Of a DNA stretch of 58,312 bases, positions 39,917 through 58,312 are shown one piece after another; position 1 is the stretch's first letter; every line of letters starts with the position of its first letter. The notes under the pieces were generated by a model that was not told the DNA's origin, searched no databases, and saw nothing but the letters and a program-made list of their open reading frames with translations. This DNA is from an uncultured Porticoccaceae bacterium. GTDB taxonomy: Bacteria; Pseudomonadota; Gammaproteobacteria; Pseudomonadales; Porticoccaceae. Both the position numbers and the translations under genes were made by a program. The stretch lies in contig CBFHVP010000003.1 in the NCBI GenBank assembly GCA_965659315.1, positions 1-58,312 of the forward strand, given 5' to 3'.

Positions 39917-39922
39917 CGATTA

Positions 39923-41900: not shown

Positions 41901-43568
41901 TTAAAACAATCCAGTAACCTGCCCACTATCATCGATAGTGATACTATTCGCCGCTGGGACTCTGGGCAATCCTGGCATGGTCATAATGTCACCGCAGACG
42001 ATAACAATAAAACCTGCGCCAGCACTTAGTCTTACTTCGCGTATTGCGACCACGTGCTCAGAGGGAGCCCCTTTAAGATTAGGGTCAGTTGAAAAGCTGT
42101 ATTGCGTTTTGGCAATACAAACCGGTAAATGGCCATAACCATTATCTTGCAGGTCACGAATCTGATCGCGAATTTTCTGATCGGCAATAATATCATCAGC
42201 TCGATAGAGTCTTGTGGCAACGGTTTTAATTTTGTCCCAGATTGGCATATCGTCAGGATATAGGGGTGCAAAGCTTGCCGCGCCGCTGTCGGCAATAGAG
42301 GCGATCTCTTTTGCGAGTTCCTCAGTACCTGCTCCGCCATCTGCCCAATGGGTACATTCGATGGCTTTGACACCGTTGGCATCAGCAACTTGTTTAATCA
42401 GAGCAATCTCAGCATCGGTATCTGAGGTAAATCGATTGATACCTACCACGACAGGAACACCAAAAGATTTAACATTTTCGATATGTCTCACCAGATTGCA
42501 GCATCCATCTTGCAGTGCATCGAGATCTTCTTTATCCAAATTGTCTTTGGTCACGCCACCGTGCATCTTTAGCGCCCTTGTGGTGGCAACAATAACTGAT
42601 GCATCCGGTGCTAGACCTGCGGCACGGCACTTTATGTCAAAGAATTTTTCCGCCCCTAAATCGGCGCCAAAACCTGCTTCTGTGACTACATAATCAGCCA
42701 TTTTTAGGCCGGCTTTGGTGGCGATAACTGAGTTGCAACCATGGGCTATATTAGCAAAGGGGCCGCCGTGGATAATCGCTGGATTATTTTCCAGTGTTTG
42801 GACCAAATTGGGTGCTAGAGCATCCTTAAGTAGTACAGACATAGCACCGGTGCCGAGAATCTCGCTGGCATGAATGGGCTTATGGTCTCTAGTGTAGGCA
42901 ACCACAATTTTATCTAAGCGCGTTTTTAAGTCGTCTAGGTCGGTGGCTAAGCAAAAAATCGCCATAACTTCAGAAGCCACGGTAATATCGTAGCCATCCT
43001 GACGCGGAAATCCATTGCCGGGGCCGCCGAGCCCACAGTTGATACTGCGCAGGGCGCGATCATTCATATCGGCAACGCGCTTCCAGACTATGCGTCGGGC
43101 ATCGATTTCAAGCTTATTGCCCCAATGAATATGATTATCGATCAGTGCAGATAGCAAATTGTGAGCTGCACCTATAGCGTGGAAATCACCAGTAAAGTGG
43201 AGGTTGATATCTTCCATGGGCACTACTTGCGCGTAGCCTCCGCCTGCAGCGCCCCCTTTCATGCCAAAGCAGGGCCCCAGACTGGGTTCGCGCAAGCACA
43301 CGAGCGCTTTTTTGCCAATGCGATTAAGGCCATCGGTCAAGCCCACCGATGTAGTAGTCTTGCCCTCACCGGCAGGGGTGGGTGTGATAGCGGTCACTAG
43401 GATTAGCTTGCCATCGGGTCGGTCATTTAAAGAACTAATATGCTGTGGGTCAATCTTTGCTTTTGTTCGGCCATAGGGAATGATTGCTGAGTCAGGGATA
43501 TTTAGTTTGCCAGCAATTTCACCGATGGGTTGAGTTTGTGCCTTTCGGGCGATATCGATATCACTCAT
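41901..43568 (-). CDS. fhs: Formate--tetrahydrofolate ligase
   Basis: [54 protein letters not shown] and MPGLP; GGAG RBS. Confidence 0.98.
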
Positions 43569-43820
43569 AGATCATACTCCATAGAGACCAACAATAATCA
43601 GACATTATCAGTGGCTTATTTAGATAGTTATTTTTGACGACATCTTCCTAGCCTGATTGTTTTGATGTATTTCTGCAACCGTCTAGTGTTGTCTTAAAAA
43701 CGACTAGAGCGCACGTCTGGCGGGGGTTATAGGGATGGCGCTGTGTGATACATTGCGGTCGTAATCACAGATTGTTCAGCCTTGCTTGGTAGTTACACTG
43801 CACGAATCAGGAAATGAGAT

Positions 43821-46340
43821 ATGAGTATGAAATCAAGTGCAAAGGTTGTGGTAATTGGCGGTGGTGTTGTCGGGGTAAGTACTCTCTACCATCTTGCCAA
43901 AAAAGGCTGGACTGATGTGGTTTTAGTTGAGCGCAAGGAATTGACCTCTGGCTCAACTTGGCACGCGGCAGGTTTATTGCCACTGTTTAATATGAGTTAT
44001 TCAGTGGGCAAGTTGCACCAGTACTCCGTTAACTTTTACCATGAACTGGAAAAGGAAACCGAGCAAAATGTCGGTTTTAGTGTAGTGTCTAATATTCGTC
44101 TTGCCGCAAATCAAGATCGTATGGATGAGTACAAGTATTACGCAGGAGTTGCTCAGACTGTTGGTGTCGAGGTTAATTTCCTCACGCCAGAGCAGGTTAA
44201 AGAGGCTTGGCCAATGGCCAATGTCGACGGCATTATTGGTGCTATTCAGCACCCAGACGATGGTTATATCCAACCCGCAGATCTCACTCAGGCGTTAGCC
44301 AAGGGCGCTCGTGCACGCGGTGCTGAGATTTACCGCAATACTGCGGTTACCGATATTGAACAGCAGCCTGACAACAGTTGGATCGTTAAAACTGATAAAG
44401 GCGATATTCATTGTGAACATGTGGTGTCTTGTACAGGTAATTTTGCGCGTAAAACCGGTGAAATGGTCGGTCTAGATATCCCTGTGATTCCGGTAGAGCA
44501 CCAATATATCGTTACCGACCCGCACCCTGATGTTTTGGAGCGCAAGGCGCAAGGATTACCTGAGCAGGCGGTACTGCGCGAATCTGATGCCGGTTATTAC
44601 CTTCGTGAAGAGGCCGGTGGCTTTATTCTCGGTCCTTATGAAGAGGGTGCGCCCTGCTGTTATGTGGATGGACCCAGTGATCAGTCAGAATACGAGTTAT
44701 TTAATGGCGACCTTGATCGTCTTATGCCACATATTGAGGCCTGTATGGCGCGTGTGCCCGCCTTCGCTGAGGTGGGTGTTAAGACGGTCTATAACGGTGC
44801 TATCGCTTACACACCAGATGGCAACCCTATAGTTGGCCCCGCCTGGGGTTTGAAAAATTTCTGGCTTAATGAGGGCCATAGCTTCGGAATTACCGCCGCT
44901 GGCGGTGCCGGTTGGCAGCTGGCAGAGTGGATTGTCGATGGTGAACCCACTGTCGATATGATGGGTGTCGACCCGCGTCGTTTTGGGCCCTATGCCAGTC
45001 GAGGTTATTTGCGCAGCAAAAATGAAGAAGCCTATGATCATGTGTTTAAAAATCATTATCCCGATGAAGAGCGCGGAGCAGCGCGGCCACTAAAGACTGC
45101 ACCCTGCTACGAGCGTATGCGTGAGTTGGGTGCAGTGTTTGGCTCTGTCTATGGCTGGGAAAGGCCTAATTGGTTCGCGCCTGACGACTATTCATTGTCT
45201 GACCAAGATCTCGATAAGGCTGATACGCTATGGAATAAAAACCACTCCAAAGCATTAGATGATGGCCGTATTGTTGAGAAAAACTCTTTTCGTCGTTCGA
45301 ACTATTTTGACTTTGTCGGTCAAGAGTGTCGCCACGTCAATGAGAAAGTGGGTCTACTGGATATGTCTGCATTTTCCAAAGCGACTGTTACTGGGCCGGG
45401 TGCAGAGGCTTGGTTAAATAGTATTGTGGCCAATACGGTTCCCAAAGGTATTGGTCGTATTGGTCTCTGTCATATGCTGTCACAAAATGGTGGTGTACGG
45501 GCTGAGTTTACGATCTATAAGCGGGCTAAAAACAGCTACTACTTGGTATTTGCTGGTGCTCAAGAACGTCATGACTGGGATTACCTGTGCAAGCTAGCGC
45601 CAGCTGACGGTTCGGTCAATCTACAGAAAATCACCACTCAGCTAGGAGTGTTGGTTTTGGCTGGACCAAAGTCACGCGATGTGCTGCAAAAGCTTACCGA
45701 TACAGACCTGTCTAATGATAACTTCAAATGGTTAACCGGTAAGTCCATTAATGTCGGTTATGCCCAAGCTGAGGCGCTACGGGTCAATTTTGTTGGCGAG
45801 TTGGGTTGGGAATTACATCATCCAATTGAGATGCAGAACTACATCTTCGATGAGTTGATCAAGGCGGGTGCCGAGTTTGACATAAAGCCATTCGGTATTC
45901 GTGCCATGGATAGTATGCGTCTAGAAAAATCTTACCGTCTGATTCCGCGAGAAATGTCGATTGAATATTCTGCTCTGGAGTCGGGCTTACATCGTTTTGT
46001 TAAGCTCGATAAAGACTGCGACTTCGTCGGTAAGCAGGCACTGTTGTTATGGCAGAAAAAAGGTTTTGCCAATTGTTTTGTGACCTTAGAGGTCCATGGC
46101 GTAACTGATGCTGATGCGCGTGGCTCAGAGGGGCTTTATAAAGAGGGTCAGCTAGTAGGGCGAGCGACCTCCGGAGGGTTTGGGTTTCGTACCAATAAGT
46201 CTTTGGCTCTTGGCTTGGTGAAGGCAGAGTTTGGCACGCTGGGGACTGAATTAGAGATTGAAATTCTTGGCGATCGCTATGCCGCGACAGTGATTCAGGA
46301 GTCACCATTTGACCCTGATAACAGGCGTCTGTTGGGGTAA
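43821..46340 (+). CDS. Dimethylglycine dehydrogenase-type FAD oxidoreductase with a GcvT (THF-binding) C-terminus
   Basis: GGGVVG, TSGSTWHAAG (covalent-FAD His), YTPDGNP, GWERPNWF, GELGWELH and RLEKSY; 839 aa. The substrate is inferred from context. Confidence 0.88.
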   Translation: MSMKSSAKVVVIGGGVVGVSTLYHLAKKGWTDVVLVERKELTSGSTWHAAGLLPLFNMSYSVGKLHQYSVNFYHELEKETEQNVGFSVVSNIRLAANQDRMDEYKYYAGVAQTVGVEVNFLTPEQVKEAWPMANVDGIIGAIQHPDDGYIQPADLTQALAKGARARGAEIYRNTAVTDIEQQPDNSWIVKTDKGDIHCEHVVSCTGNFARKTGEMVGLDIPVIPVEHQYIVTDPHPDVLERKAQGLPEQAVLRESDAGYYLREEAGGFILGPYEEGAPCCYVDGPSDQSEYELFNGDLDRLMPHIEACMARVPAFAEVGVKTVYNGAIAYTPDGNPIVGPAWGLKNFWLNEGHSFGITAAGGAGWQLAEWIVDGEPTVDMMGVDPRRFGPYASRGYLRSKNEEAYDHVFKNHYPDEERGAARPLKTAPCYERMRELGAVFGSVYGWERPNWFAPDDYSLSDQDLDKADTLWNKNHSKALDDGRIVEKNSFRRSNYFDFVGQECRHVNEKVGLLDMSAFSKATVTGPGAEAWLNSIVANTVPKGIGRIGLCHMLSQNGGVRAEFTIYKRAKNSYYLVFAGAQERHDWDYLCKLAPADGSVNLQKITTQLGVLVLAGPKSRDVLQKLTDTDLSNDNFKWLTGKSINVGYAQAEALRVNFVGELGWELHHPIEMQNYIFDELIKAGAEFDIKPFGIRAMDSMRLEKSYRLIPREMSIEYSALESGLHRFVKLDKDCDFVGKQALLLWQKKGFANCFVTLEVHGVTDADARGSEGLYKEGQLVGRATSGGFGFRTNKSLALGLVKAEFGTLGTELEIEILGDRYAATVIQESPFDPDNRRLLG

Positions 46341-46349
46341 ATTTAGCGC

Positions 46350-46380
46350 GTCGTGCACGGATATTGTGATGTCGTAGCAC
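46350..46380 (+). promoter_or_regulatory. Candidate AraC/GlxA-type operator: direct repeat with 21-bp period
   Basis: GTCGTGCAC at 46350 and GTCGTAGCAC at 46371, upstream of the methyltransferase gene. Confidence 0.45.
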
Positions 46381-46478: not shown

Positions 46479-46483
46479 TTACT

Positions 46484-48037
46484 ATGACTGAACGTACGGG
46501 GCGAAGAAGAGCAGGAAGAGAGGCCGGTGGCCGCGAAGGGCGCCGTGAGGCTCGTGCTAACGCGACGGTTAAGGCGCCGCCTTTTATCGAACGCAAAATC
46601 CCTTTTGTGGATTATCTTAGCGATGAGAGTTTGCAACTGATCGAGGATAATGCAGATACCATTTTGGAAGAAATCGGTATCGATTTCCTTGATGATCCCG
46701 AAGCGTTGGAGATGTGGAAAGACGCGGGCGCCGATGTGCAGGGCACGCGAGTGCACTTTCCCAAGGGGCTATGTCGCTCTATTATTCAGGCTACCGCGCC
46801 CAAGGAATATACCCAGCATGCACGCAACCCCGATCGCAATGTCATTATTGGTGGCAAGCGCACGGTATTGGTGCCGGCCTACGGTTCGCCGTTTGTGCAT
46901 GATATAGATCAGGGGCGTCGCTACGCCACCATCGAGGATTTTCAAAATTTCGTTAAGCTCGCCTATATGGCCCCTGGTTTGCACCACTCTGGCGGTACCA
47001 TCTGTGAGCCAGTGGATCTACCGGTAAACAAACGCCATTTTGATATGGTCTACAGCCATTTTAAGTACAGTGATAAGCCCTTAATGGGTTCGGTCACTCA
47101 TCATGAGCGCGCTCAAGATACCGTCGATATGGCTAAATTGGTGTTTGGTGATGAGTTTGTTGACCAGAATTGCGTGTTAACCAGCCTTATCAATGTTAAC
47201 TCGCCTATGACTTATGACGCTACTATGTTGGGCTCTCTTAAAGTCTATGCACGCAATAATCAGGCGACAGTGATCTCACCCTTTATCTTAGCCGGTGCCA
47301 TGTCGCCAGTAACTGCCGCCGGCACGGTGACACAAATACTTGCAGAAGCTCTGGCGGGTATTGCCTTTACCCAGCTTTGTCGGCCCGGGGCACCGGTTGT
47401 TTTTGGCACCTTTGCCGCGGCAGTATCGATGGCGACGGGTGCGCCCACCTTTGGTACGCCAGAGCCAAGTCAGGTGATCTACGCGGCAGCGGCATTGGCC
47501 CGACGGTTGGGTGTTCCGTTTAGAAGTGGTGGGGGCCTGACGGGCTCCAAATTACCGGATGCTCAGGCGGCCTATGAAGCGGCCAATACATTGCAAACCA
47601 GTGCCTTGGCCGGCGTTAACTTTATGCTTCATACCGCTGGTTGGCTAGAGGGCGGCCTAGCGATGGGTTATGAAAAATTTATTATGGACTGTGATCAGGC
47701 CAGCATGATTTCTGTGCTGCTATCCGGTATGGATGTGTCTGAGAACGGGCAGGCTCTTGATGCTGTGCGTGAGGTCGGCCCCGGCAAACATTATCTCGGC
47801 TCTGCTCACACCTTGAAGAATTTTGAAACGGCTTTTTATCGCTCCACTGTTGCCGACAATAATAGTTATGAGCAGTGGCAGGCAGATGGTTCTCTGGATA
47901 CCGCGCAGCGCGCTAATCAGCTGTGGAAAAAAATGCTTAATGAGTATCAGGTGCCAGCCATCGATCCGGCTGTTGATGAGGCATTATTAGACTTTATGGC
48001 GCAGCGCAAGGGCTCGTTTGAAGACCGAGATTATTGA
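46484..48037 (+). CDS. Non-pyrrolysine MttB-superfamily corrinoid methyltransferase (MT1), probably glycine betaine-specific (MtgB-like)
   Basis: ILEEIGIDF, ARNP, PAYGSPF, CEPVD, NVNSPM, GAMSPVT, GAPTFGTPE, FRSGG, SKLPDAQA, LHTAGWLE, YEKF and VGPGKHYL; no in-frame amber codon. Confidence 0.9.
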   Translation: MTERTGRRRAGREAGGREGRREARANATVKAPPFIERKIPFVDYLSDESLQLIEDNADTILEEIGIDFLDDPEALEMWKDAGADVQGTRVHFPKGLCRSIIQATAPKEYTQHARNPDRNVIIGGKRTVLVPAYGSPFVHDIDQGRRYATIEDFQNFVKLAYMAPGLHHSGGTICEPVDLPVNKRHFDMVYSHFKYSDKPLMGSVTHHERAQDTVDMAKLVFGDEFVDQNCVLTSLINVNSPMTYDATMLGSLKVYARNNQATVISPFILAGAMSPVTAAGTVTQILAEALAGIAFTQLCRPGAPVVFGTFAAAVSMATGAPTFGTPEPSQVIYAAAALARRLGVPFRSGGGLTGSKLPDAQAAYEAANTLQTSALAGVNFMLHTAGWLEGGLAMGYEKFIMDCDQASMISVLLSGMDVSENGQALDAVREVGPGKHYLGSAHTLKNFETAFYRSTVADNNSYEQWQADGSLDTAQRANQLWKKMLNEYQVPAIDPAVDEALLDFMAQRKGSFEDRDY

Positions 48038-48064
48038 GTAATAGTTTATTGAGGGTGACATCCT

Positions 48065-48763
48065 ATGTCCGATGAAGACGATATCGTATTAGCTGAGTTA
48101 TCTGACCAAGATTTAGTGTTGCAGATGCATGATGATCTCTATGATGGTTTAAAAGAAGAGATCGAAGAGGGGACCAGTATCTTGCTAGAGCGCGGTTGGT
48201 CAGCAGAGAAAGTATTAAGTGAAGCGCTGGTCGATGGTATGACCGTTGTTGGTATTGATTTCCGCGACGGTATTTTATTTGTACCAGAGGTGTTGCTTGC
48301 CGCCAATGCAATGAAAGGCGGTATGGCTATCCTCAAACCATTGTTAGCAGAGACCGGCGCCAAGCCAGTCGGCACTATGGTGATTGGTACGGTTAAAGGT
48401 GATATCCATGATATCGGTAAAAACCTTGTGGCTATGATGATGGAGGGTGCTGGATTTGAGGTGCATGATATGGGCATCAATAATTCCGTTGAAGACTATA
48501 TCGCCACATTGGAGCGTCATAAACCCGATATTTTGGGTATGTCGGCATTGCTGACCACCACCATGCCCTATATGAAAGTGGTGATTGATGCACTGAAAGA
48601 TCAAGGTCTGCGTGATAAATATATCGTTATGGTGGGCGGGGCGCCACTCAATGAGGAATTTGGTACGGCAGTGGGTGCGGATGCATACTGTCGTGATGCA
48701 GCAGATGCGGCAACCACTGCCATTCGTCTGGTAACTGAGCGCAGAGCGTTAGCGTCGGCGTAA
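48065..48763 (+). CDS. Stand-alone corrinoid (B12-binding) protein: cap plus Rossmann domain
   Basis: GM..VG..F....FVPEV (cap), GDIHDIGKNLV (DxHxxG), SALLTTT and VGGAP. Confidence 0.95.
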   Translation: MSDEDDIVLAELSDQDLVLQMHDDLYDGLKEEIEEGTSILLERGWSAEKVLSEALVDGMTVVGIDFRDGILFVPEVLLAANAMKGGMAILKPLLAETGAKPVGTMVIGTVKGDIHDIGKNLVAMMMEGAGFEVHDMGINNSVEDYIATLERHKPDILGMSALLTTTMPYMKVVIDALKDQGLRDKYIVMVGGAPLNEEFGTAVGADAYCRDAADAATTAIRLVTERRALASA

Positions 48764-49383
48764 TGGGAGCAAAAAGTGCTCAGCCAAGGCTGCTAATAAT
48801 TGCCTGCGGTGCACTGGCTCATGAGATTGTTTATCTGCAAAAAATAAATCGCTGGAGTTCTGTTGACCTGCAATGTCTCGATGCTGAGTTACACAACCAA
48901 CCTAAGCTCATTCCACAAAAGCTGCGGGCGGTTATAGATAGAAATTACTCCAAATACGAGCGCATTTTTATTGCGTATGGCGACTGTGGCACAGGCGGTG
49001 AGATTGATCGCCTGATAGAGAGCTATAGTGACAGAATAGAGCGTTTGCCAGGTGCTCATTGTTACTCGTTCTATGCTGGCGAGGAGCGATTTAGACAATT
49101 ATCTGAGCAACAGTTGGGTACGTTTTACCTCACCGATTTTTTGGTTGAACATTTTGATCGACTCGTTATCAAGGGATTGAAATTGGATCAGCATAGAGAG
49201 TTGCGTGATCAGTATTTTGCTGGCTATCAGCTCGTTGTTTATTTGTCGCAGCGCCTAGATGACCAATTGCTGGATAAAGCCAGAGCCGCTGCAGAGTTTC
49301 TGGGGCTGGCCTTTCGTCACCAACACTGTGGCTATGGTGACTTGGAAACAAGCTTACACGAGCAAGTGCTTCGAGTTAGTTAA
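48763..49383 (+). CDS. DUF1638-family protein
   Basis: LIIACGAL, LHNQP, YGDCGTGG, HCY and GTFYLTDF pattern; TAATG coupling to the corrinoid gene. Confidence 0.82.
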   Translation: MGAKSAQPRLLIIACGALAHEIVYLQKINRWSSVDLQCLDAELHNQPKLIPQKLRAVIDRNYSKYERIFIAYGDCGTGGEIDRLIESYSDRIERLPGAHCYSFYAGEERFRQLSEQQLGTFYLTDFLVEHFDRLVIKGLKLDQHRELRDQYFAGYQLVVYLSQRLDDQLLDKARAAAEFLGLAFRHQHCGYGDLETSLHEQVLRVS

Positions 49384-49395
49384 GAGAGAAACAGT

Positions 49396-49704
49396 ATGCA
49401 AAAAATTGAAGTGTTGTGGCGCGACATTCCTGCTCAGGTACTAGTGAAAAGTGGTCGTGTGCGAGGTAAAGCCATGCTGAGTCATCGCTTTCAGGCTGCT
49501 ATTGATCGTGCCGCCATGCGTGCCGGCAAGGGCGGCAGTGATGAGTATTTAGAGGACTGGCGCCGTATCACCACGTCATTTGAGGCTGAGGGTAATGCGC
49601 AAGAATTAGCGCAGCAGTTCGCCGATGCTATCGAAGCCGCTTACTCTAATGCCGATATAGCAGCACTGGTGGCCAGCAAGGGCCTTGCGGTTAAATCAGG
49701 ATGA
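49396..49704 (+). CDS. Small conserved protein resembling the 'Virulence_fact' (CvfC-related) domain family
   Basis: WRDIPAQV...LSHRFQAAIDRAAM...YLEDWRR pattern; in-operon, ATGA overlap with the next gene. Confidence 0.7.
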   Translation: MQKIEVLWRDIPAQVLVKSGRVRGKAMLSHRFQAAIDRAAMRAGKGGSDEYLEDWRRITTSFEAEGNAQELAQQFADAIEAAYSNADIAALVASKGLAVKSG

Positions 49705-50168
49705 AAATGGTCCGCTACTGGTCGGTTAACAATGCTCGCTGGCTGCGCTGGGTTTATCGTAGCCTTGAAGCCTGTCTGGTAATTGCACACCCATTGCTTA
49801 AAAGGGTTGGCTATCAGCGGCTTGACTCAGGTGTCGCTGGCATTGAAAAGCTGGTTAAAGGCTTTTTGTTCGATTCGCAATCCTGTGGCCAGTGCACTCT
49901 CGGTGAAACAGGTATGGCTTGTCCAATGAACTGTCCCAAGACGCTGCGCAATGGCCCCTGTGGTGGTGTGTGCAGTAATGGTCACTGCGAGGTAGACCCA
50001 GATATGGTTTGTGTTTGGGTAACATCTTGGCAGGGTAGTCAACGCATTGGCGCCCCCGAAACCACTATTCAGGTGATACAGCCACCGGTTGATGTGCGTC
50101 TCAAGGGCAGTAGTGCTTGGTTGCGTGCAGTGAAAAAGAAAGTGGGGTGGATCGATGATATTCGATGA
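49701..50168 (+). CDS. MetV-like Cys-rich MTHFR accessory subunit (MTHFR C-terminal domain family)
   Basis: CGQC...CPMNCPKTLRNGPCGG...CEV....CVW motif; overlaps the metF start. Confidence 0.85.
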   Translation: MKMVRYWSVNNARWLRWVYRSLEACLVIAHPLLKRVGYQRLDSGVAGIEKLVKGFLFDSQSCGQCTLGETGMACPMNCPKTLRNGPCGGVCSNGHCEVDPDMVCVWVTSWQGSQRIGAPETTIQVIQPPVDVRLKGSSAWLRAVKKKVGWIDDIR

Positions 50169-51141
50169 CGAGCCACTGGCTGGTGAAAACCTGCCCATAT
50201 TGCCGGGGCATGATTCACCTGGCCGTTTTGAGCGCGTATTGCGCGCGGGTCACTTTGCGGTAACAGCGGAAATAGCACCGCCTGACTCATCTGATCCATA
50301 TGAAGTATATGAGCGAGCGGCTTTATTTGATGGCTATGTAGACGCTATAAATGCCACAGATGGATCCGGTGCCAACTGCCATATGTCCAGTGTTGGTATG
50401 TGTGCGTTGCTCACTCGCCGAGGCTATTCGATGATTATGCAAATATCCTGTCGTGATAAAAATCGTATCGCCATGCAGGGTGATGTGCTAGGTGCCTCTG
50501 CCATGGGCGTGTCTAATATTCTCTGCCTTACTGGTGATGGCGTGCAGTCTGGTGATCATCCAGAAGCCAAGCCGGTGTTTGATATGGACTGTATGACCAG
50601 TCTGCAAATGTTGTGCGGCATGCGCGATAAGGGGCAGTTTCTCAGTGGGCGTAAAATTACCTCGCCGCCGCAAGTGTTCCTGGGTGCGGCGGCCAATCCA
50701 TTTGCCCCGCCATTTGACTATCGTCCATTACGCCTAGCAAAAAAGGTTGCTGCTGGTGCGCAATTTGTGCAGACCCAATACTGCTTTGATATTGCAATGC
50801 TCAAGGATTACATGACCAAGGTGCGCGAGTTGGGATTGCACAAAAAAGTGTTTATTTTGCCTGGCGTTGGACCTTTGGCTTCGGCTAAGTCCGCGGAGTG
50901 GATACGCAGCAATGTGGCCGGAGTGCATATTCCCGACGCCATCATTAAGCGGCTGTCGGGTGCCAAAGATCAAAAGCAAGAGGGCGTTAATATCTGTATT
51001 GATATGATCAATCAAATCCGCGAAATAGAAGGTGTCAGTGGGGTGCATATTATGGCCTACCGACAGGAACAGCGGATTGCAGAAATTGTAGAAAAAACTC
51101 AGGTGTTAGGGGATCGAATGCCCTGGCATCCCAATCGATAA
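50155..51141 (+). CDS. metF: Methylenetetrahydrofolate reductase, MetVF type
   Basis: VTAEIAPP, NATD, QISCRDKNRIA, LCLTGD, KKVAAGAQFVQTQ and GVHIM. Confidence 0.92.
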   Translation: MIFDDEPLAGENLPILPGHDSPGRFERVLRAGHFAVTAEIAPPDSSDPYEVYERAALFDGYVDAINATDGSGANCHMSSVGMCALLTRRGYSMIMQISCRDKNRIAMQGDVLGASAMGVSNILCLTGDGVQSGDHPEAKPVFDMDCMTSLQMLCGMRDKGQFLSGRKITSPPQVFLGAAANPFAPPFDYRPLRLAKKVAAGAQFVQTQYCFDIAMLKDYMTKVRELGLHKKVFILPGVGPLASAKSAEWIRSNVAGVHIPDAIIKRLSGAKDQKQEGVNICIDMINQIREIEGVSGVHIMAYRQEQRIAEIVEKTQVLGDRMPWHPNR

Positions 51142-51156
51142 TGTCTGGAGACTAGC

Positions 51157-52050
51157 ATGACCATCACGACAATTAGTTCCGCCACCAAAGAAGTCAAAAT
51201 AGGCTTTGACCAGCCTTTTGTTATTATTGGCGAGCGTATTAATCCCACCGGTCGCAAAATCTTGGCTGAAGAAATGAAGGTGGGTGATTACAGTCGCGTG
51301 GAGGCCGATGCCTTAGCGCAGGTGGCTGCAGGTGCACAGATGCTAGATGTTAATGCCGGTATCCCGCTAGCTGATGAGCCGCGTATTCTTGCCGAGTCTA
51401 TTCAGTTGGTACAGTCAATTACTGATGTGCCGTTAAGCATTGATTCGTCGATAATTGAGGCGCTTGAAGCGGGTCTCTCGGTTTACCAGGGTAAAGCACT
51501 GGTCAATTCCGTTACTGGAGAAGATGAGGTGCTAGAGCGGGTATTACCTTTAGTGGCGAAGTATGGTGCTTCAGTCGTCGCTATCTCCAATGATGAAACG
51601 GGTATTTCTGAAGATCCAGATGAGCGCTTTGCCGTGGCCAAAAAGATTGTTGAGCGGGCGGCTGATCATGGTATCCACTACAGTGATGTTGTGGTAGATC
51701 CACTAGTGATGCCAATTGGCGCGATTAATACCGCGGGTTTACAGGTGATGCATGTGGTGCGTCGTCTGCGTGAAGAGCTGAAAGTGAATACCACCTGCGG
51801 TGCCTCCAATGTCAGCTTTGGATTACCTAACCGCAATGGTATCAATAGCGCATTTTTGACTATGGCTATGGGCGCGGGTATGACCTCAGCGATCACCAGT
51901 CCGTTGCACCCAGAAGTTATGGCTGCGGTACGTGGTGGTGATGTGATGATGGGGCATGATCCCAATTGTGCGAACTGGATTCAAGCCTACCGGGAACCCG
52001 CCGCCGAAGGCGAGGGTCGTGCGCGGGGCGGTCGTAGACGACGAGGGTAA
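51157..52050 (+). CDS. Pterin-binding methyltetrahydrofolate:corrinoid methyltransferase (MT2; AcsE/MetH folate-domain type)
   Basis: IIGERINPTG, GAQMLDVNAG, PLSIDS, VNSV, VVDP and GASNVSFGLP; GGAG RBS. Confidence 0.92.
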   Translation: MTITTISSATKEVKIGFDQPFVIIGERINPTGRKILAEEMKVGDYSRVEADALAQVAAGAQMLDVNAGIPLADEPRILAESIQLVQSITDVPLSIDSSIIEALEAGLSVYQGKALVNSVTGEDEVLERVLPLVAKYGASVVAISNDETGISEDPDERFAVAKKIVERAADHGIHYSDVVVDPLVMPIGAINTAGLQVMHVVRRLREELKVNTTCGASNVSFGLPNRNGINSAFLTMAMGAGMTSAITSPLHPEVMAAVRGGDVMMGHDPNCANWIQAYREPAAEGEGRARGGRRRRG

Positions 52051-52066
52051 GAGTATTTTGCAACAG

Positions 52067-54073
52067 ATGGTCAAGGTCGTTTTTACCCCCTCTGGTCGAC
52101 GCGGTAGTTTCCCCGTCAACACGCCGCTATTACATGCGGCACGGGTATTGGGGGTCGATATTGATTCAGTCTGTGGCGGCCGCGGCCTCTGTGGTCGATG
52201 TCAGGTTATCTGTGCCGAGGGTTCTTTTGCCAAACATCAGATTGAGTCCGACAGTAGTCATTTATCACCCATTTGTGCGACCGAAATTAAGTACGGCGAA
52301 CGCAAAACGCCATTGGCCACCGGTCGGCGCCTGAGTTGTCATACATTGCTGCTGGATGATGTGGTTATCGATGTGCCACCAGAAAGTCAGGTTCATCGGC
52401 AAGTGGTGCGCAAAGAAGCTGAATATCGTGACATCAGTCTTGATCCCTCTACGCGACTGTATTACGTGGAGGTCGAAGAGGCCGATATGCATGTGCCTAA
52501 AGGCGATCTACAGCGGCTGACCGACGCATTGGATCAGCAATGGGGCCTGACAAATCTCAGTTGCGACAACCTGTTATTAAAATCCTTGCAGCCGGCTCTA
52601 GCGGTTGCTAAGCGTGGTATTACCCTGGCCGTACACAGTAACCAAAAAATCATCGCGCTGTGGCCAGGCTTTAAAGATACTGCTTTTGGCGTGGCGGTAG
52701 ACATAGGTTCGACTACGCTTGCCGCGCATCTCTGTGATTTATCGACTGGCGAGATACTTGGTAGTGCAAGTCAGATGAATCCGCAGATTCGATTCGGCGA
52801 AGATTTAATGAGTCGTGTCTCTTATGTGATGATGAATCCCGAAGGCGCAGAGGAAATGACTTTAGTTATTCGTGAGGCGTTGAATAACTTGTTTACCCAA
52901 GTTGCGATGCAGGCTGAATTAGAGCTGGAGGATATTGTCGAAGTATCTTTGGTGGCCAATCCAATTATGCACCATATTCTACTGGGTATTAGCCCTGTGG
53001 AATTAGGGGGCGCGCCTTTTGCACTGGCTACCGATGCCGCGGTTGAAATGACCGTCAGTGAAATGGCTTTCAATATTAATGCGACAGGGCGTGTCTATAT
53101 ACTGCCTTGTATTGCCGGTCATGTCGGTGCAGATACGGCAGGTATGATTCTCTCTGAGGCGCCTCAAGAGCAGGACCAGATGACGCTGTTGGTGGATGTG
53201 GGAACCAATGCAGAAATTGTTCTTGGCAATCGCTATCGATTGTTAGCCTGCTCTAGCCCCACGGGGCCAGCGTTTGAGGGTGCACAAATTAGCTGTGGAC
53301 AGCGAGCGGCAACGGGGGCCATTGAGCGTGTGCGTATTGATCCGCAAACGCTAGAGCCGCGTTTTAAAGTGATTGGTTCAGAGTTGTGGTCGGATGAGCA
53401 AGGGTTTGATGATGTGTTACAGAGTCAACCTGTAACCGGTATCTGTGGCTCCGGCATTATTGAAGTGGTCGCGGAAATGTATCTATCAGGTATTGTCACT
53501 GAAGATGGTATTATCGATGGTGAACTCGCCCTGCGCAGTCAGCGAATTGTGCAAAATGATCGCACATGGTCTTATCTATTACACCAGTCCGGCAACGATG
53601 CACCTCAGATTATGGTAACTCAAAATGATATTCGCCAAATCCAACTGGCCAAAGCAGCGCTCTATGCAGGTGTTAAATTACTCATGGATCATATTGGTAT
53701 TGATAGGGTTGAGCGTATTCGTTTGGCGGGGGCTTTTGGCAGTCATATTAATGTGCAACATGCCATGGTCTTGGGTTTAATTCCCGATTGTGTATTAGAC
53801 AGTGTTTCGTCAGCTGGAAATGCCGCGGGTACTGGAGCTCGCATCGCTCTGCTCAACCAAAAATCCAGACACCTTATTGAGACAGTCGTAAAAAATATCG
53901 AAAAAATTGAAACTGCCATAGAACCCAAGTTTCAAGATTACTTTGTCGACGCCATGGCTTTTCCCAACAAAAAAGATCCATTCGCAAATTTATTTTCTGT
54001 TGTCAAAAAACCGCCATCGAAGGTTATTAGCGATACTGCTAGCAGCGCACGAAAACGTCGTCGACGACAATAA
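52067..54073 (+). CDS. ATP-dependent reductive activator of corrinoid proteins (RamA/RACo; 2Fe-2S + ASKHA). Start is ATG 52067 or TTG 52058.
   Basis: CGGRGLCGRC...RLSC ferredoxin, DIGSTT, NPQ..FGED..SR, GHVGAD, DVGTNAE, GPAFEG, GICGSG, LAGAFG and GNAAG. Confidence 0.92.
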   Translation: MVKVVFTPSGRRGSFPVNTPLLHAARVLGVDIDSVCGGRGLCGRCQVICAEGSFAKHQIESDSSHLSPICATEIKYGERKTPLATGRRLSCHTLLLDDVVIDVPPESQVHRQVVRKEAEYRDISLDPSTRLYYVEVEEADMHVPKGDLQRLTDALDQQWGLTNLSCDNLLLKSLQPALAVAKRGITLAVHSNQKIIALWPGFKDTAFGVAVDIGSTTLAAHLCDLSTGEILGSASQMNPQIRFGEDLMSRVSYVMMNPEGAEEMTLVIREALNNLFTQVAMQAELELEDIVEVSLVANPIMHHILLGISPVELGGAPFALATDAAVEMTVSEMAFNINATGRVYILPCIAGHVGADTAGMILSEAPQEQDQMTLLVDVGTNAEIVLGNRYRLLACSSPTGPAFEGAQISCGQRAATGAIERVRIDPQTLEPRFKVIGSELWSDEQGFDDVLQSQPVTGICGSGIIEVVAEMYLSGIVTEDGIIDGELALRSQRIVQNDRTWSYLLHQSGNDAPQIMVTQNDIRQIQLAKAALYAGVKLLMDHIGIDRVERIRLAGAFGSHINVQHAMVLGLIPDCVLDSVSSAGNAAGTGARIALLNQKSRHLIETVVKNIEKIETAIEPKFQDYFVDAMAFPNKKDPFANLFSVVKKPPSKVISDTASSARKRRRRQ

Positions 54074-54212: not shown

Positions 54213-55211
54213 GTGGATATGGTCGATACCGTAGATACAGTTGCAGTAGAGTCTCAAGACATTTTTGAAACCATGCATATTGGTTTCCTAATGATGCCAG
54301 AGTATACCCTGAGTACCTTTTCAAATGCAGTCTCGGTACTGCGTATGGCCAATCGATTAAGTGAGAAAGAACTGTATCGCTATTCAGTGTTTTCCCTCGA
54401 TGGCGAACCGGTTGTATCCAGTGCTGGACTTGAGTTGACGTTGGATGGCAGCCTAAGCTCCGTCGGAGACATGCAGGTATTGATTGTTTGCGGTGGCTAT
54501 AACGTCAAGGAATATTGTACTAAAGCGACTCTTGAAGCGCTCCGCGCTATGGCTAAGAAAAATATTCCCTTGGGTGGTATATGCACAGGCAGTTATGTGC
54601 TTGCAGCCGCCGGTCTATTGGATGGCTATCGCAGTACTATTCACTGGGAAAATATTGCGAGTATGCGTGAGCAATTTCCCAAATTAAATATCTCCTCGAG
54701 CCTCTTTGTTATTGATCGTGATCGCTACACCTGTTCTGGTGGCATCAGTTCAATTGATTTGATGCTCAACCTGGTCGCCAGTATTCACGGTCATCAGTTG
54801 GTACAACAGATTTCCGAGCAATTCACCTGTGATCGTGTGCGCACGGAGAAGGATCCCCAGCGCGCACCACTACAGTACTTGATGGGGTCTAGTCAGCCGA
54901 GACTCGTCGATGCAGTGACATTGATGGAGGCGAATATTGAAGAGCCGTTGAGTCTTGATGAGGTCGCTGAATATGTCGGAATTTCGAGACGTCAATTAGA
55001 GCGCCTGTTCAATCGCTATCTACACTGTGCGCCTTCACGTTACTACTTAGAGTTGCGTCTCTCACGAGCAAGATTACTTCTTTTGCAGACTTCCATTCCC
55101 GTGATTGATGTGGCGATTAGCTGTGGCTTCTCTACCGCACCCCACTTTAGCAAATGCTACAGCGATCTTTATGGCAAACCCCCGAGCAGTGAGCGACGGG
55201 CGTTGAGTTAG
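54213..55211 (+). CDS. GlxA-family (GATase1 + AraC) regulator, GbdR-like; start codon uncertain
   Basis: LRMANRLS, GGICTG, IHWEN, DRYTCSGG, LMEANIEEPL, SRRQLERLF and CGFSTAPHFSKCY. Confidence 0.85.
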   Translation: MDMVDTVDTVAVESQDIFETMHIGFLMMPEYTLSTFSNAVSVLRMANRLSEKELYRYSVFSLDGEPVVSSAGLELTLDGSLSSVGDMQVLIVCGGYNVKEYCTKATLEALRAMAKKNIPLGGICTGSYVLAAAGLLDGYRSTIHWENIASMREQFPKLNISSSLFVIDRDRYTCSGGISSIDLMLNLVASIHGHQLVQQISEQFTCDRVRTEKDPQRAPLQYLMGSSQPRLVDAVTLMEANIEEPLSLDEVAEYVGISRRQLERLFNRYLHCAPSRYYLELRLSRARLLLLQTSIPVIDVAISCGFSTAPHFSKCYSDLYGKPPSSERRALS

Positions 55212-56194
55212 CCCTGACGGTACTCAGTGGGTCTTTTGCCAAAGACAGTACGAAATGCCCGTGAAAAGTGGGCGGTGTCAGCGAAACCACATTCCTGAGC
55301 AATATCGGTAATTGACCGCGGCGTATTTTGCAGCAACCAGAGGCCATAGCTCAACCGAATTGCCCGGTAAAATTTTTGTAAGCTCTCTCCCGTATCATGC
55401 ACAAACAGGCGTTCGAGTTGTCGCTTTGATATATTCAGGCGGTTAGCAATTTCATCAGTTGATAGGGGGCGGCTAAGATTTTGCTCCATCAATAATAGAG
55501 CACGCACCACCAATTTATTTTTCACCTGATAATCTGAAGTGGGTGGTGGTTGTGGTGCATTTGCTGGTCGGGGACTGTCCATAACCAAAATGCGTAAACT
55601 TTTACGCGCCCAGCTCTGGCCTAAATGCCGCTCAATAATATACGCGGCTAAGTCTGCTGCCACGGCGCCACCAGCACAAGTGATGCGGTCACCATCATCA
55701 ACAAATAGTTGATCCGCTACAGGAATAACATCGGTAAAACGATCGGTCAGATCCTTGTGGTGAAACCAGCTGACGCAGCAGCGGCGATTTTGCATTAAGC
55801 CGGCTCTTATCATGGCAAAAGAACCGGTACACAAACCGATAATAGGGATATGTGTACGATCTGCGCGTTTTAGGTAATCAATGATGTGCTGATTGCCATG
55901 CAATGTCTCGGATAACAAACCACCGACGACGACGATATAGTCAAACTCAGCCGGGTCGCGGTAGGTCTCCCAAGGCTCAATGGCAACGCCGGAGCTGGAG
56001 GTTATCTTTCTCAGATCGGGTCCCATTACTGTCCAGCGACAATGAATTTGTTCACTGTGATCACCCTCGTCAGCGGCGAGGCGCAACGCATCAATAAAGG
56101 CGGAAAAAGGCAGTAGAGTAAAGCTCGGCATCAGCACAAAACCTACCGACAAACTGGGCGATAAGGAATATTTTTCTGCGACAGTAGGAGCCAT
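55208..56194 (-). CDS. Second GlxA-family AraC regulator, possibly SouR-like (ATG at 56194; track start 56248)
   Basis: FTLLPFSAFIDALRLAADEGD, GLCTG, TCAGG, SKRQLERLF and CGFADTAHFSRAF; divergent from soxB. Confidence 0.85.
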   Translation of the reverse strand: MAPTVAEKYSLSPSLSVGFVLMPSFTLLPFSAFIDALRLAADEGDHSEQIHCRWTVMGPDLRKITSSSGVAIEPWETYRDPAEFDYIVVVGGLLSETLHGNQHIIDYLKRADRTHIPIIGLCTGSFAMIRAGLMQNRRCCVSWFHHKDLTDRFTDVIPVADQLFVDDGDRITCAGGAVAADLAAYIIERHLGQSWARKSLRILVMDSPRPANAPQPPPTSDYQVKNKLVVRALLLMEQNLSRPLSTDEIANRLNISKRQLERLFVHDTGESLQKFYRAIRLSYGLWLLQNTPRSITDIAQECGFADTAHFSRAFRTVFGKRPTEYRQG

Positions 56195-56313
56195 GGCTTG
56201 ATTACTCAACAAAGCCAATATTGTAGAGTTGTCGACGCTTATATACAATAAATCGTGTTTAACCGTTGAATGTAAACGCCATTTTGGTTAATTTTTATCC
56301 GAATTAGCCATTA

Positions 56314-56346: not shown

Positions 56347-56414
56347 TTCTATCCGCGATTACTGTTCAGTTGATCCAATAGGGCTTCATGTGATAATTGT
56401 TTTGAGTTGTGACA

Positions 56415-57665
56415 ATGAAGAGATACTCTGGCTTCAGTCTATTTAAAAATGCGCTGAGCTACCACGAAAATTGGCAAAAACTATGGCGTAGTCCGAAGCC
56501 CAAAACTGACTACGATGTGGTGGTTGTCGGAGGTGGTGGTCATGGATTGGCCACAGCCTATTATCTTGCTTCGGTACATGGTGTTACCAATGTTGCTGTT
56601 ATTGAAAAGGGTTATTTAGGGGGTGGTAACACAGCGCGAAATACCACCATTATTCGTTCCAACTACCTTTGGGACGAAGCGGCTCAGCTGTATGAGTTAT
56701 CGCTTAAGTTGTGGGAGGGATTAAGCCAAGAGCTCAACTACAATGTAATGTTCAGTCAGCGCGGGGTGTTAAATCTTGGTCACAACTTGCAAGATATGCG
56801 AGATATTGAACGACGGGTCAATGCCAATCGTCTCAATGGTATCGATGGCGAAGTTGTGTCCCCTGAACAAATTAAGCAAATAGCCCCACTGATTAATATT
56901 TCCAGCGACTGTCGTTACCCTATTTTGGGTGCGTCTTGGCAGCCTCGTGGCGGCACTGCTCGGCATGATGCAGTAGCTTGGGGGTACGCGCGGGGAGCTG
57001 ACGCTTTGGGTGTGGACCTTATTCAAGAGACTGAAGTGATCGGTATCCGTCGTAAAAATGGAACGGTGCTGGGTGTTGAAACCACGCAAGGTTTTATCGG
57101 TGCGCGCAAAGTTGCCTGTGTTACCGCCGGTAATTCTGGTGTCGTCGCCGCTATGGCGGGGTTGAGATTACCGGTTGAGTCGCGGCCCCTGCAGGCATTG
57201 GTCTCAGAGCCTGTTAAACCCTGTCTTGACACGGTGGTGATGTCTAATGCGGTGCATGGTTATATCAGTCAGTCTGATAAGGGCGATTTGGTTATCGGTG
57301 CCGGCGTTGATGGTTACAACGGCTACGGCCAGCGTGGCTCATTCCATATTATTGAACACACTCTGCAGGCCATTTGTGAGTTATTCCCAGCCTTTAGCCG
57401 AGTGCGCATGAATCGGCAGTGGGGTGGGGTAGTCGATACCTGCCCAGATGCTTGTCCGATTATCAGTAAAACATCGGTTAAGGGCTTGTATTTTAATTGC
57501 GGCTGGGGAACGGGAGGGTTTAAAGCAACGCCCGGCTCTGGGTATGTGTTTGCCGATACGGTGGCCAATGATCACCCCCATCCCTTGGCGGCCGCTTTTG
57601 ATATCGATCGATTCAATACCGGTGCGCTGATTGATGAACATGGCGCGGCGGGCGTTGCCCATTAA
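56415..57665 (+). CDS. soxB: Heterotetrameric sarcosine oxidase beta subunit (ATG at 56415; alternative GTG at 56409)
   Basis: [53 protein letters not shown] and [10 protein letters not shown]. Confidence 0.96.
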
Positions 57666-57697
57666 TATGCTGACAATTTTATAGAGAACGGTTAATT

Positions 57698-57994
57698 ATG
57701 TTACAGATCTTCTGCCCTCATTGTCGCGAAAATCGTGAAGAGGAAGAGTTTAGCTACAGTGGCGAGGCGCATATTGTTCGGCCGCTGAATCCTGAAGCTC
57801 TCAGCGATAAAGAGTGGGGCGACTATTTATTTTTTCGTAAAAACCCACGTGGACTGCATCATGAAATGTGGTATCACGCTGAGGGCTGTGGGCGTTATTT
57901 TTATGCCACTCGCGATACCTTAAGTTATGAGATTTTAGAGACCTATGTTGTCGGTGAGAAACCACAGGTGACTGCAACGGAGGCAGAAAAATGA
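57698..57994 (+). CDS. soxD: Sarcosine oxidase delta subunit
   Basis: IFCPHC...EEEF..GEAHI.RP...W.DYLF.R.NPRG...WYHAEGC Zn-binding pattern. Confidence 0.95.
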   Translation: MLQIFCPHCRENREEEEFSYSGEAHIVRPLNPEALSDKEWGDYLFFRKNPRGLHHEMWYHAEGCGRYFYATRDTLSYEILETYVVGEKPQVTATEAEK

Positions 57995-58312
57995 AGCAAG
58001 TTAACCGATTGGCTTCTGGCTCTTGCACCGATAGTTCACAACTTATCAATTTTACATTTAATGGCAAAAAACTGCAGGGTGTGGCGGGCGATACACTTGC
58101 GTCTGCACTGTTAGCTAATGGCGTTAATGTGGTTGGTCGCAGCTTTAAGTATTCACGTCCGCGAGGCATTGTTGGTCATGGTGCGGAAGAACCAAACGCG
58201 ATTATGCAGATTGGTTCTGGCGCAGCCACGGTGCCCAATCTCAAGGCAACGCAGGTTGAGCTCTATGAAGGACTTGAGGCAGCTTCAGTTAATGGCTGGC
58301 CGAGTGTAAATT
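57991..58312 (+). CDS. soxA: Sarcosine oxidase alpha subunit (partial; runs off the window and is absent from the ORF track)
   Basis: Hand translation from the ATG at 57991 (ATGA overlap with soxD, GGAGG RBS): MKQVNRL...FTFNGK...GDTLASALLANG..VVGRSFKYSRPRGI...EEPNA...PNLKATQVELYEGL. Confidence 0.94.
   Translation, partial: MKQVNRLASGSCTDSSQLINFTFNGKKLQGVAGDTLASALLANGVNVVGRSFKYSRPRGIVGHGAEEPNAIMQIGSGAATVPNLKATQVELYEGLEAASVNGWPSVN

What the first reader, a model, noticed from the sequence alone, without database searches (positions are those of the whole stretch)
41901..58312. Single-locus B12-dependent betaine demethylation and methyl-oxidation pathway in a complex I-bearing gammaproteobacterium
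Seen: eight tightly packed or overlapping genes (MttB-family MT1, corrinoid protein, DUF1638, small conserved protein, MetV-like, MetF, pterin-binding MT2, RACo). They are flanked by DMG dehydrogenase, fhs, two GlxA regulators and soxBDA. Established: MT1 + corrinoid + MT2 + ATP-dependent activator is the four-component demethylase architecture of anaerobes (acetogens, Desulfitobacterium MtgB system). Pseudomonas instead removes the first betaine methyl with the O2-consuming Rieske oxygenase GbcAB. Inference: betaine -> DMG -> sarcosine -> glycine, with all three methyls captured on THF. Methyl-THF would be oxidised by MetVF and formyl-THF cashed in for ATP by Fhs, i.e. a reversed Wood-Ljungdahl methyl branch used for methylotrophic energy. 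As I recall, related components are known in Roseobacter-group and rhizobial alphaproteobacteria, so the novelty is the compact complete operon, the host, and the unassigned accessory genes. folD and a betaine transporter are not in this window.
Basis: partly seen in the sequence, partly recalled or inferred. Interest (0 to 1): 0.88.

Follow-up and report, generated by a model that had tools for sequence, protein, structure and literature searches.

The report
B12-dependent betaine demethylation locus in SAR92
This is an intact gene cluster in a common marine bacterium that likely uses vitamin B12 to take the first methyl group off the algal osmolyte glycine betaine and then likely oxidises the methyl groups for energy, a system described in aerobic marine bacteria in 2025, so it is a tidy new example with one small unexplained accessory gene.

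Summary
In detail: all eight core genes and the flanks are there and intact. The pathway reading is mostly right but not new. It is the aerobic cobalamin-dependent glycine betaine (GB) demethylase MtgBCD with RamA-like activator and DUF1638 (Mausz 2025, PMC12478193; Price 2018; Hammer 2025). Mausz already reports operon-like clusters in marine Gammaproteobacteria and lists OM60-type genomes with MetH plus MtgBCD. The scan found it before on other DNA. The host is a SAR92-clade Porticoccaceae; 41 of 62 genus genomes carry the MttB gene. It keeps canonical MetH and has no MtgE or GbcA match, so the module is probably catabolic rather than a dual methionine synthase.

Additions here:
- A conserved GbdR/CdhR-type direct repeat precedes mtgB.
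- Acetogen-type MetV-MetF is swapped for the roseobacter MetF2 type in close relatives.
- The 102-aa PF13769 'virulence factor' tracks DUF1638 (47 of 51 alphaproteobacterial carriers), has no fold match, and its probable Ruegeria orthologue appears only on N-osmolytes. It is a likely unrecognised accessory component.

Substrate and flux direction are inferred. New member of a known kind; interest 0.27.

The parts
41901..43568 (-). fhs, formate-THF ligase
   Evidence: PF01268 E 2e-267; NF010030 above cut-off
43680..43761 (.). two one-mismatch copies of the GTCG-N17-GTCG repeat in the divergent fhs/dmgdh spacer (43680-43704 on -, 43737-43761 on +)
   Evidence: one half-site of each is conserved in relatives; function inferred
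43821..46340 (+). dimethylglycine-dehydrogenase-like flavoprotein with folate-binding GcvT domain
46350..46374 (+). GTCG-N17-GTCG direct repeat, probable GbdR/CdhR-family operator upstream of mtgB
   Evidence: 17 of 17 aligned spacers; 28 of 74 MttB loci, including all 19 at 85% identity or more; same 21-bp period as the footprinted CdhR site GGTCGC-N15-GGTCGC
46484..48037 (+). MtgB: non-pyrrolysine MttB-family methyltransferase (MT1)
   Evidence: PF06253 E 1e-228; Y133/N237/R347/H383 align to the predicted GB-site residues of D. hafniense MtgB
48065..48763 (+). MtgC corrinoid protein
   Evidence: PF02310 + PF02607; DxHxxG motif at residue 113
48763..49383 (+). DUF1638, B12-reactivation accessory protein
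   Evidence: PF07796; invariant C15, H44, D74, C75, H99, C100 in 35 sequences
49396..49704 (+). PF13769 'virulence factor' protein, 102 aa; probable unrecognised accessory of the module
49701..50168 (+). MetV-like Cys-rich subunit
   Evidence: PF12225; 7 Cys invariant in 25 sequences
50155..51141 (+). MetF partner of MetV; a second MTHFR, about 25% identical over 129 aa to the housekeeping MetF on contig C74
51157..52050 (+). MtgD, methyl-corrinoid:THF methyltransferase (MT2)
   Evidence: PF00809; NF005719 above cut-off
52067..54073 (+). RamA/RACo-type ATP-dependent corrinoid activator (probable start 52067)
   Evidence: PF00111, PF17650, PF17651, PF14574; start
54213..55211 (+). GbdR-like GlxA-family regulator
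   Evidence: NF052371 437 bits, cut-off 480
55208..56248 (-). second GlxA-family regulator
   Evidence: NF052371 189 bits
56316..56340 (+). one-mismatch copy of the direct repeat upstream of soxB
56409..58312 (+). soxB, soxD and 5' part of soxA (sarcosine oxidase); remainder and soxG on contig C15

Best explanation
The window encodes an intact MtgB-MtgC-MtgD cobalamin methyl-transfer module with its two reactivation proteins, which likely moves the first methyl group of glycine betaine onto tetrahydrofolate so that a SAR92-clade bacterium can oxidise it for energy. MtgB would methylate cob(I)alamin on MtgC from GB, MtgD would pass the methyl to THF, and RACo with DUF1638 (and probably the PF13769 protein) would re-reduce oxidised cobalamin at the cost of ATP. 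MetV-MetF would oxidise methyl-THF to methylene-THF. The DMG dehydrogenase and sarcosine oxidase would add two more methylene-THF. FolD, Fhs (ATP) and formate dehydrogenase (NADH) would finish the oxidation. A GbdR-like activator probably switches on fhs, dmgdh, mtgB and sox through the GTCG-N17-GTCG repeats. The genome keeps canonical MetH and shows no MtgE, so the module is probably catabolic only, although part of the methyl-THF would feed MetH. B12 is probably taken up, not made. Shown: genes, families, order, conservation, motif. Inferred: substrate, direction of MetVF, regulation, role of PF13769.
For: All components are present. Homologous mtgC and mtgD mutants of R. pomeroyi cannot use GB. 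The P. inhibens mtgB1 gbcAB double mutant cannot grow on GB. [quoted passage not shown] Indirect orthology to MtgB1: HTCC2080 has two MttBs, 82% and 26% identical to the window protein; Dataset S2 gives its MtgB1 hit as 57%; the 82% copy is 56.6% identical to the closest of seven paralogues in a genome with roseobacter-like gene order. Y/N/R/H site residues are kept in 76-77 of 77 sequences. The locus encodes the next two demethylation steps and a GbdR-like regulator, and fhs-dmgdh-mtgB order is conserved in SAR92 relatives. The operator-like repeat is conserved while its flanks vary. No GbcA over cut-off in 62 of 62 genus genomes; best G000 score 125.6 bits against 670. folD, purU, fds-type formate dehydrogenase and BCCT carriers are in the genome. 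Related loci put purU-folD (L068) or a TmpA/TmpB-like pair (L085) inside the cluster (that TmpAB yields GB is recalled).
Against: None of the passages I read shows an in vitro assay of an aerobic MtgB. The four site residues come from docking and need not be specific; D. hafniense F353 is Gly here in 77 of 77 sequences. I had no R. pomeroyi or P. inhibens sequence, so orthology is indirect, and the tree node joining these clades is weak (84/92). MetVF enzymes are known from anaerobes, lack an NADH site, and methyl-THF oxidation to NAD+ is uphill; no electron acceptor is identified. Eight Halieaceae loci have no MTHFR in that slot. In G000 (90% complete) I found no BtuB-like receptor at E 1e-40, no cobalamin riboswitch and no serine dehydratase, although 60 of 62 genus genomes have a below-cut-off BtuB-like candidate and 40 of 62 have the dehydratase. 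G000 has two Rieske oxygenases of unknown substrate, and 19 of 62 genus genomes have full-length GbcA-like paralogues at 228-338 bits. The repeat alone is not above chance in the window (2 found, 0.89 expected), and related genomes are not independent.
Confidence: 0.8

Rival explanations
1. Same machinery, different first substrate: MtgB demethylates another methylated osmolyte (proline betaine, carnitine, choline or a sulfonium compound), and the DMG/sarcosine genes serve a neighbouring step.
For: MttB paralogues in Eubacterium prefer different quaternary amines. The F353 position differs. A perfect copy of the repeat precedes a DmdA-like gene on contig C147, so the regulon may be wider than GB.
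Against: Only one MttB in G000 and in most genus members; it sits directly behind the DMG dehydrogenase; it falls with the MtgC-linked clade, not with the paralogues; no other GB demethylase was found.
Confidence: 0.11
2. The module mainly supplies methyl-THF to MetH for methionine and SAM, and the bulk of the methyl is not oxidised for energy.
For: MetH is present; no MetE found; methyl-THF oxidation is uphill; eight Halieaceae loci lack an MTHFR in the cluster.
Against: A second MTHFR is kept inside the operon beside a housekeeping MetF elsewhere, and two unrelated MTHFR types fill the same slot. MetF2 was the most induced protein on N-osmolytes in R. pomeroyi. fhs is divergently linked.
Confidence: 0.06
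3. MtgC and MtgD also serve as a split methionine synthase here, as in Ruegeria and Phaeobacter.
For: That dual role is shown for the homologues. Some genus members have stand-alone PF02574 proteins of about 290-370 aa. G000 is only 90% complete.
Against: The only PF02574 match in G000 is the MetH N-terminus (TIGR02082 E 3e-189, cut by the contig end), and the MetH reactivation domain is on C33. The closest relative G008 has one match, a 1237-aa MetH.
Confidence: 0.03

Closest known systems
Aerobic MtgBCD(E) GB demethylase / split methionine synthase with RamA, DUF1638 and MetF2 of Ruegeria pomeroyi and Phaeobacter inhibens (Mausz 2025 PMC12478193; Price 2018 PMC5764234; Hammer 2025 bioRxiv 10.64898/2025.12.19.695462)
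   Same: Same five components; same downstream DMG, sarcosine and THF oxidation genes; clustering in marine Gammaproteobacteria already reported.
   Different: One locus rather than scattered genes; canonical MetH kept and no MtgE found; MetV-MetF instead of MetF2; no GbcAB backup; no CobS in G000 and in 55 of 62 genus genomes; SAR92 not named in Dataset S2.
Desulfitobacterium hafniense MtgB/MtgC/MtgA and Methanolobus GB methyltransferase systems (passages of PMC6855144)
   Same: MT1 + corrinoid + MT2 + activator architecture; Y94/N199/R309/H345 equivalents kept.
   Different: Anaerobes. Window MtgC scores far below the NCBIfam MtgC cut-offs (199 against 370, 166 against 310); F353 is Gly; the closest solved structure is 4YYC (755 bits), not 2QNE (436 bits).
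Type II MetVF methylene-THF reductases of acetogens (passages of PMC8760232)
   Same: Adjacent metV and metF; Cys-rich MetV.
   Different: Aerobic host; predicted oxidative direction; no rnfC2 or hdr genes beside it; replaceable by MetF2 in close relatives.
Pseudomonas aeruginosa GbdR/CdhR-regulated GB catabolism (passages of PMC5806209)
   Same: GlxA-family regulators, 21-bp-period GTCG direct repeat, sox genes.
   Different: Pseudomonas removes the first methyl with the Rieske oxygenase GbcAB, which is not found here.

Membership tests
Aerobic MtgBCD GB demethylase | Non-pyrrolysine PF06253 methyltransferase | tested here: met
   PF06253 E 1e-228, 517-aa open frame without internal stop
Aerobic MtgBCD GB demethylase | MT1 is the orthologue of the GB-specific MtgB1 | tested here: inconclusive
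   Indirect only: Dataset S2 identity for HTCC2080 and paralogue comparison; no R. pomeroyi sequence in hand
Aerobic MtgBCD GB demethylase | Stand-alone corrinoid protein MtgC with DxHxxG | tested here: met
   86% to the HTCC2080 MtgC, which Dataset S2 gives as 75% to R. pomeroyi MtgC
Aerobic MtgBCD GB demethylase | Stand-alone pterin-binding MtgD | tested here: met
   PF00809; NF005719 above cut-off
Aerobic MtgBCD GB demethylase | RamA-like activator and DUF1638 | tested here: met
Aerobic MtgBCD GB demethylase | Needed for, and induced by, growth on GB | not testable with these tools
   RNA-library contigs cover the cluster but show neither induction nor need
Dual-function split methionine synthase MtgCDE | Stand-alone homocysteine module MtgE, with MetH usually absent | tested here: not met
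   Only PF02574 match is the MetH N-terminus; MetH C-terminal domain also present; genome 90% complete
Roseobacter MetF2 step | MetF2-type MTHFR beside mtgD | tested here: not met
   Window has MetV-MetF, with no significant match to the MetF2-like protein (E 0.04); MetF2-like genes fill the slot in L029, L031, L052, L088, L110
Type II MetVF MTHFR | metV next to metF; Cys-rich MetV | tested here: met
Type II MetVF MTHFR | Fe-S/Zn content and ferredoxin or viologen dependence | not testable with these tools
   no solved MetV homologue found by sequence
Wood-Ljungdahl pathway | CODH/ACS carbonyl branch | not tested
   not searched; only methyl-branch-like genes are in the locus
GbcAB GB monooxygenase | GbcA over the NF058607 cut-off | tested here: not met
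   G000 best 125.6 bits against 670; 0 of 62 genus genomes over cut-off
GbdR/CdhR-type operator | GTCG half-sites in direct repeat with a 21-bp period | tested here: met
   binding itself untested

The most novel reading that the evidence does not exclude
The PF13769 'virulence factor' protein is a sixth, unrecognised component of aerobic cobalamin methyl-transfer systems. It has a small fold without a match among solved structures and works with the Cys/His-rich DUF1638 protein to load or reactivate cobalamin on MtgC in the presence of oxygen. In SAR92 an acetogen-type MetV-MetF also runs backwards in an aerobe, which would give a simple system for finding the long-sought physiological electron partner of MetVF.
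Probability: 0.4. Interest if true: 0.55.

Novelty: new member of a known kind. Interest (0 to 1): 0.27.

Why it matters
It extends a 2025 pathway to the SAR92 clade, where about two thirds of the genus genomes searched carry it (41 of 62) and most lack CobS (55 of 62). These bacteria would then be both a GB sink and a B12 sink. Because MetH is kept, SAR92 mutants could separate GB demethylation from methionine synthesis, which roseobacter mtgC and mtgD mutants cannot do cleanly. It also gives a probable real role to a family that databases call 'virulence factor'. None of this changes the known mechanism.

Tried and rejected
- Fold of PF13769: confident model (pLDDT 92.7), no Foldseek match at E 0.001, best VIA Z 3.5. 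Uninformative, and not proof of a new fold.
- Fold of DUF1638: pLDDT 90.9, only generic alpha/beta matches, best Z 8.4. My idea of an MvhD-like Fe-S protein got no support.
- Fusions of PF13769 to DUF1638 or MtgD: 4 of 9 long hits, each a single sequence and possibly read-through or frameshift errors. Given little weight.
- A recalled GbdR pattern with a short spacer was at chance level. Sigma-70 and terminator scans were at or near chance.
- RNA runs: a 5,915-bp contig spans 45743-51656 in X2, but X2 also covers the flanking genes, so DNA carry-over is not excluded. The uncovered parts in X6, X10 and X16 are no evidence (4 of 22 listed runs laid).
- A genome-wide listing of intergenic copies of the repeat was not completed.
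- The link to complex I was rejected.
- Paper searches: PF13769 gave 0 papers; DUF1638 gave 4; SAR92 + glycine betaine + methyltransferase gave 2, listings only; SPO1861 has 0 occurrences in main texts. The library lacks most subscription journals.
Full report
Observation. The eight core genes run from 46484 to 54073 on the + strand with junctions between a 14-nt overlap and a 27-nt gap. RACo probably starts at 52067, not 51956. The window is a whole contig of a 2.05-Mb, 90% complete assembly. The rest of soxA and soxG are on contig C15, and the close relative G008 shows soxBDAG uninterrupted. The nuo operon is a neighbour here and in G008 but not in G033, so complex I is not part of the story.

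Host and spread. The best MttB relatives are Porticoccaceae and similar marine genomes at 84-94% identity, including the named isolate HTCC2207 (93%). Sources name the PF13769 relatives 'Porticoccaceae' and 'SAR92 clade'. I take the host to be a SAR92-clade member. In the genus, 41 of 62 genomes carry PF06253 and 40 of 62 carry PF13769; the one difference is a genome whose MttB is at a contig end. Among 24 genomes of other families in the order, 2 have a close MtgC (74-77%). The order fhs, dmgdh, mtgB, mtgC, DUF1638, PF13769, MTHFR, mtgD, RACo, gbdR, sox is conserved in the SAR92 loci long enough to show it.

What is known. Mausz et al. 2025 (PMC12478193; read parts 1-4 of 6 of the text, Dataset S2 parts 1, 3 and 4 of 5, Dataset S3, and rows of Dataset S1; figures and the SI appendix PDF not seen) show that R. 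pomeroyi mtgC and mtgD mutants cannot use GB and are methionine auxotrophs. They also show that MtgB1/B2, RamA, DUF1638 and MetF2 rise on N-osmolytes. They state that in other marine Alpha-, Gamma- and Deltaproteobacteria these genes are often co-located, even in operons, with the later demethylation genes. Dataset S2 lists HTCC2080, HTCC2143, HTCC2148 and HIMB55 with MetH, MtgC, MtgB1 and MtgD. HTCC2207, SAR92 and Porticoccaceae do not occur by name in that file; the unseen Fig. 4 or appendix might still show them. Price et al. [quoted passage not shown] Hammer et al. 2025 (abstract, three results sections and passages; supplements closed) deleted mtgB1 in P. inhibens. Lidbury et al. 2015 (PMC4744692, passages) showed that Fhs is needed for growth on GB. 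The pathway, its occurrence in aerobes, its clustering and its presence in Gammaproteobacteria are therefore published. Earlier notes of this scan reached the same verdict on other genomes; I had formed that reading before opening them.

Substrate. The window MttB keeps Y133, N237, R347 and H383, which align with the residues predicted by docking to bind GB in D. hafniense MtgB (alignment, mapped by eye; PMC6855144 passages). They are kept in 76-77 of 77 sequences, while the F353 position is Gly in all 77. Orthology to MtgB1 is indirect. HTCC2080 has two MttBs, 82% and 26% identical to ours, so the 57% MtgB1 hit in Dataset S2 is very probably the first. That copy is 56.6% identical to the nearest of seven paralogues in G316, a genome with roseobacter-like gene order. 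The tree of 44 rows (the window protein, 19 picked loci, 21 paralogues from five genomes and 3 others) puts the window with MtgC-linked copies, but the deeper node is weakly supported. Context supports GB: DMG dehydrogenase directly upstream, sarcosine oxidase downstream, a GbdR-like regulator, and no GbcA over cut-off in 62 of 62 genus genomes. Against this, 19 of those genomes have full-length GbcA-like paralogues at 228-338 bits whose substrates are unknown.

Regulation. The dmgdh-mtgB spacer holds GTCG-N17-GTCG at 46350-46374. Both half-sites keep their 21-bp spacing in 17 of 17 aligned spacers while the flanks vary. The exact repeat lies upstream of mtgB in 28 of 74 loci, including all 19 at 85% identity or more. 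One-mismatch copies precede dmgdh, fhs and soxB. The footprinted CdhR site of P. aeruginosa is GGTCGC-N15-GGTCGC, described as very similar to the GbdR and SouR sites (PMC5806209 passages). In the window alone the count is not above shuffles, and relatives are not independent, so the case rests on position and conservation.

Rest of the pathway. G000 has folD (C88), purU (C141), an NAD-type formate dehydrogenase operon cut by a contig end beside frmAB (C99), a glycine cleavage T protein (C139), BCCT carriers below the betaine-specific cut-off, a housekeeping metF (C74) and a DmdA-like gene (C147). MetH is present in two pieces at contig ends. No stand-alone PF02574, no MetE and no serine dehydratase were found; the dehydratase is in 40 of 62 genus genomes, G008 among them. 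CobS is found in 7 of 62 genus genomes and not in G000. A BtuB-like candidate below cut-off is in 60 of 62 but not in this assembly, and no cobalamin riboswitch was found. The simplest reading is a B12-importing organism with a catabolic module beside an ordinary MetH.

The MTHFR slot. Reading, among loci that show both PF13769 and mtgD in the cluster, 24 have metV-metF, 5 have a different MetF-like gene (L029, L031, L052, L088, L091; also L110), 8 Halieaceae loci have nothing between the two, and L099 has a housekeeping-type metF upstream instead. The alternative protein has no significant match to the window MetF (E 0.04) but is 37% identical to a 309-aa protein lying between PF13769 and mtgD in L140. 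R. pomeroyi MetF2 is also 309 aa and adjacent to mtgD, so I infer it is the MetF2 type. Two unrelated enzymes in one slot suggest one job, most likely oxidising methyl-THF. How MetVF would do so is open: type II enzymes lack an NADH site, their electron partner is unresolved, and the reaction with NAD+ is uphill unless pulled by the next enzyme (PMC8760232 passages).

The PF13769 gene. In 251 alphaproteobacterial genomes PF13769 is in 51 and DUF1638 in 52; 47 have both, 195 neither, and in 32 of the 47 they are adjacent on one strand (one weak DUF1638 hit below cut-off left out; related genomes inflate any P value). In three loci where the two are apart, PF13769 heads a PF13769-MetF2-mtgD unit (L139, L140, L145). 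In L140 it is 98 aa from the internal Met (counted by hand). R. pomeroyi SPO1861, the gene before metF2, is an uncharacterised 98-aa protein. It had 1-7 peptides in all 12 N-osmolyte samples and none in the 3 controls; the rise was significant on carnitine and on succinate + GB, but not on choline or GB alone. That SPO1861 is PF13769 is inferred from length and position, not from its sequence. The paper's text does not mention it, and PF13769 gave no paper. The gene was not detected in several clusters (Arenicella loci, L066, L101, L108), so it may be dispensable or divergent. Its model is confident but matches no solved fold. DUF1638 has invariant Cys and His residues, which suggests a metal site, but its fold matches are generic. 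No complex prediction was available, so any binding is a hypothesis.

Expression. Contigs from four RNA libraries of four studies cover parts of the cluster at mostly 90-99% identity. This shows presence in those libraries, not induction or a single transcript.

Verdict. A real and complete locus, best read as the known aerobic MtgBCD GB demethylase in a SAR92 host (confidence 0.8). It is a member of that family on every component I could test and not a member of the dual methionine-synthase form. Novelty is limited to the host, the operator motif, the MetVF/MetF2 swap and the PF13769 lead. Interest 0.27.

Noticed in passing
L125:104-128 (G000 contig C147): A perfect GTCG-N17-GTCG repeat lies about 75 bp upstream of a DmdA-like aminomethyltransferase (371 bits, cut-off 410). 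DMSP demethylation would also give methyl-THF, so it may share the regulator and the MetVF step.
   Followed up: partly
window 46484-46560, 52000-52050, 54040-54073, 48065-48110: Arginine-rich N-terminus of MtgB and C-termini of MtgD and RACo, against an acidic N-terminus of MtgC (visible). Earlier scan notes propose these as docking tags.
   Followed up: partly
L085:2672-4470: In an Arenicella locus a TmpA-like dioxygenase (313 bits, cut-off 400) and an HD-domain protein sit between mtgC and DUF1638; possibly a phosphonate-to-betaine route feeding the module.
   Followed up: partly
L122 (C141) and L123 (C110): A second sarcosine-oxidase-like set: purU followed by a soxB paralogue (48%), and soxD/soxA/soxG-like genes with a LysR-like regulator on another contig. 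Substrate unknown.
   Followed up: partly
L129:6023-9427 (C39): A Rieske oxygenase in an operon with an amino-acid transporter and a dimethylarginase-like protein; not GbcA.
   Followed up: partly
L047, L048, L050: Gammaproteobacterial loci where mtgB-mtgC is followed by a distant MetF2-like gene (27%), with no DUF1638, PF13769, mtgD or RACo hit nearby.
   Followed up: no
L074: A record titled Candidatus Planktophila carries a cluster that groups with a betaproteobacterial MttB and has the same layout as L079; possible binning error or transfer.
   Followed up: no
L106:12172-15431; L108:6469-8016: G060 and G049 carry extra, divergent MttB paralogues next to the cluster, suggesting additional substrates.
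   Followed up: partly
window 39485-41826: A 143-aa gene without an NCBIfam match at E 1e-10, a kinase-like gene and an rlmA-like gene separate nuoN from fhs.
   Followed up: no
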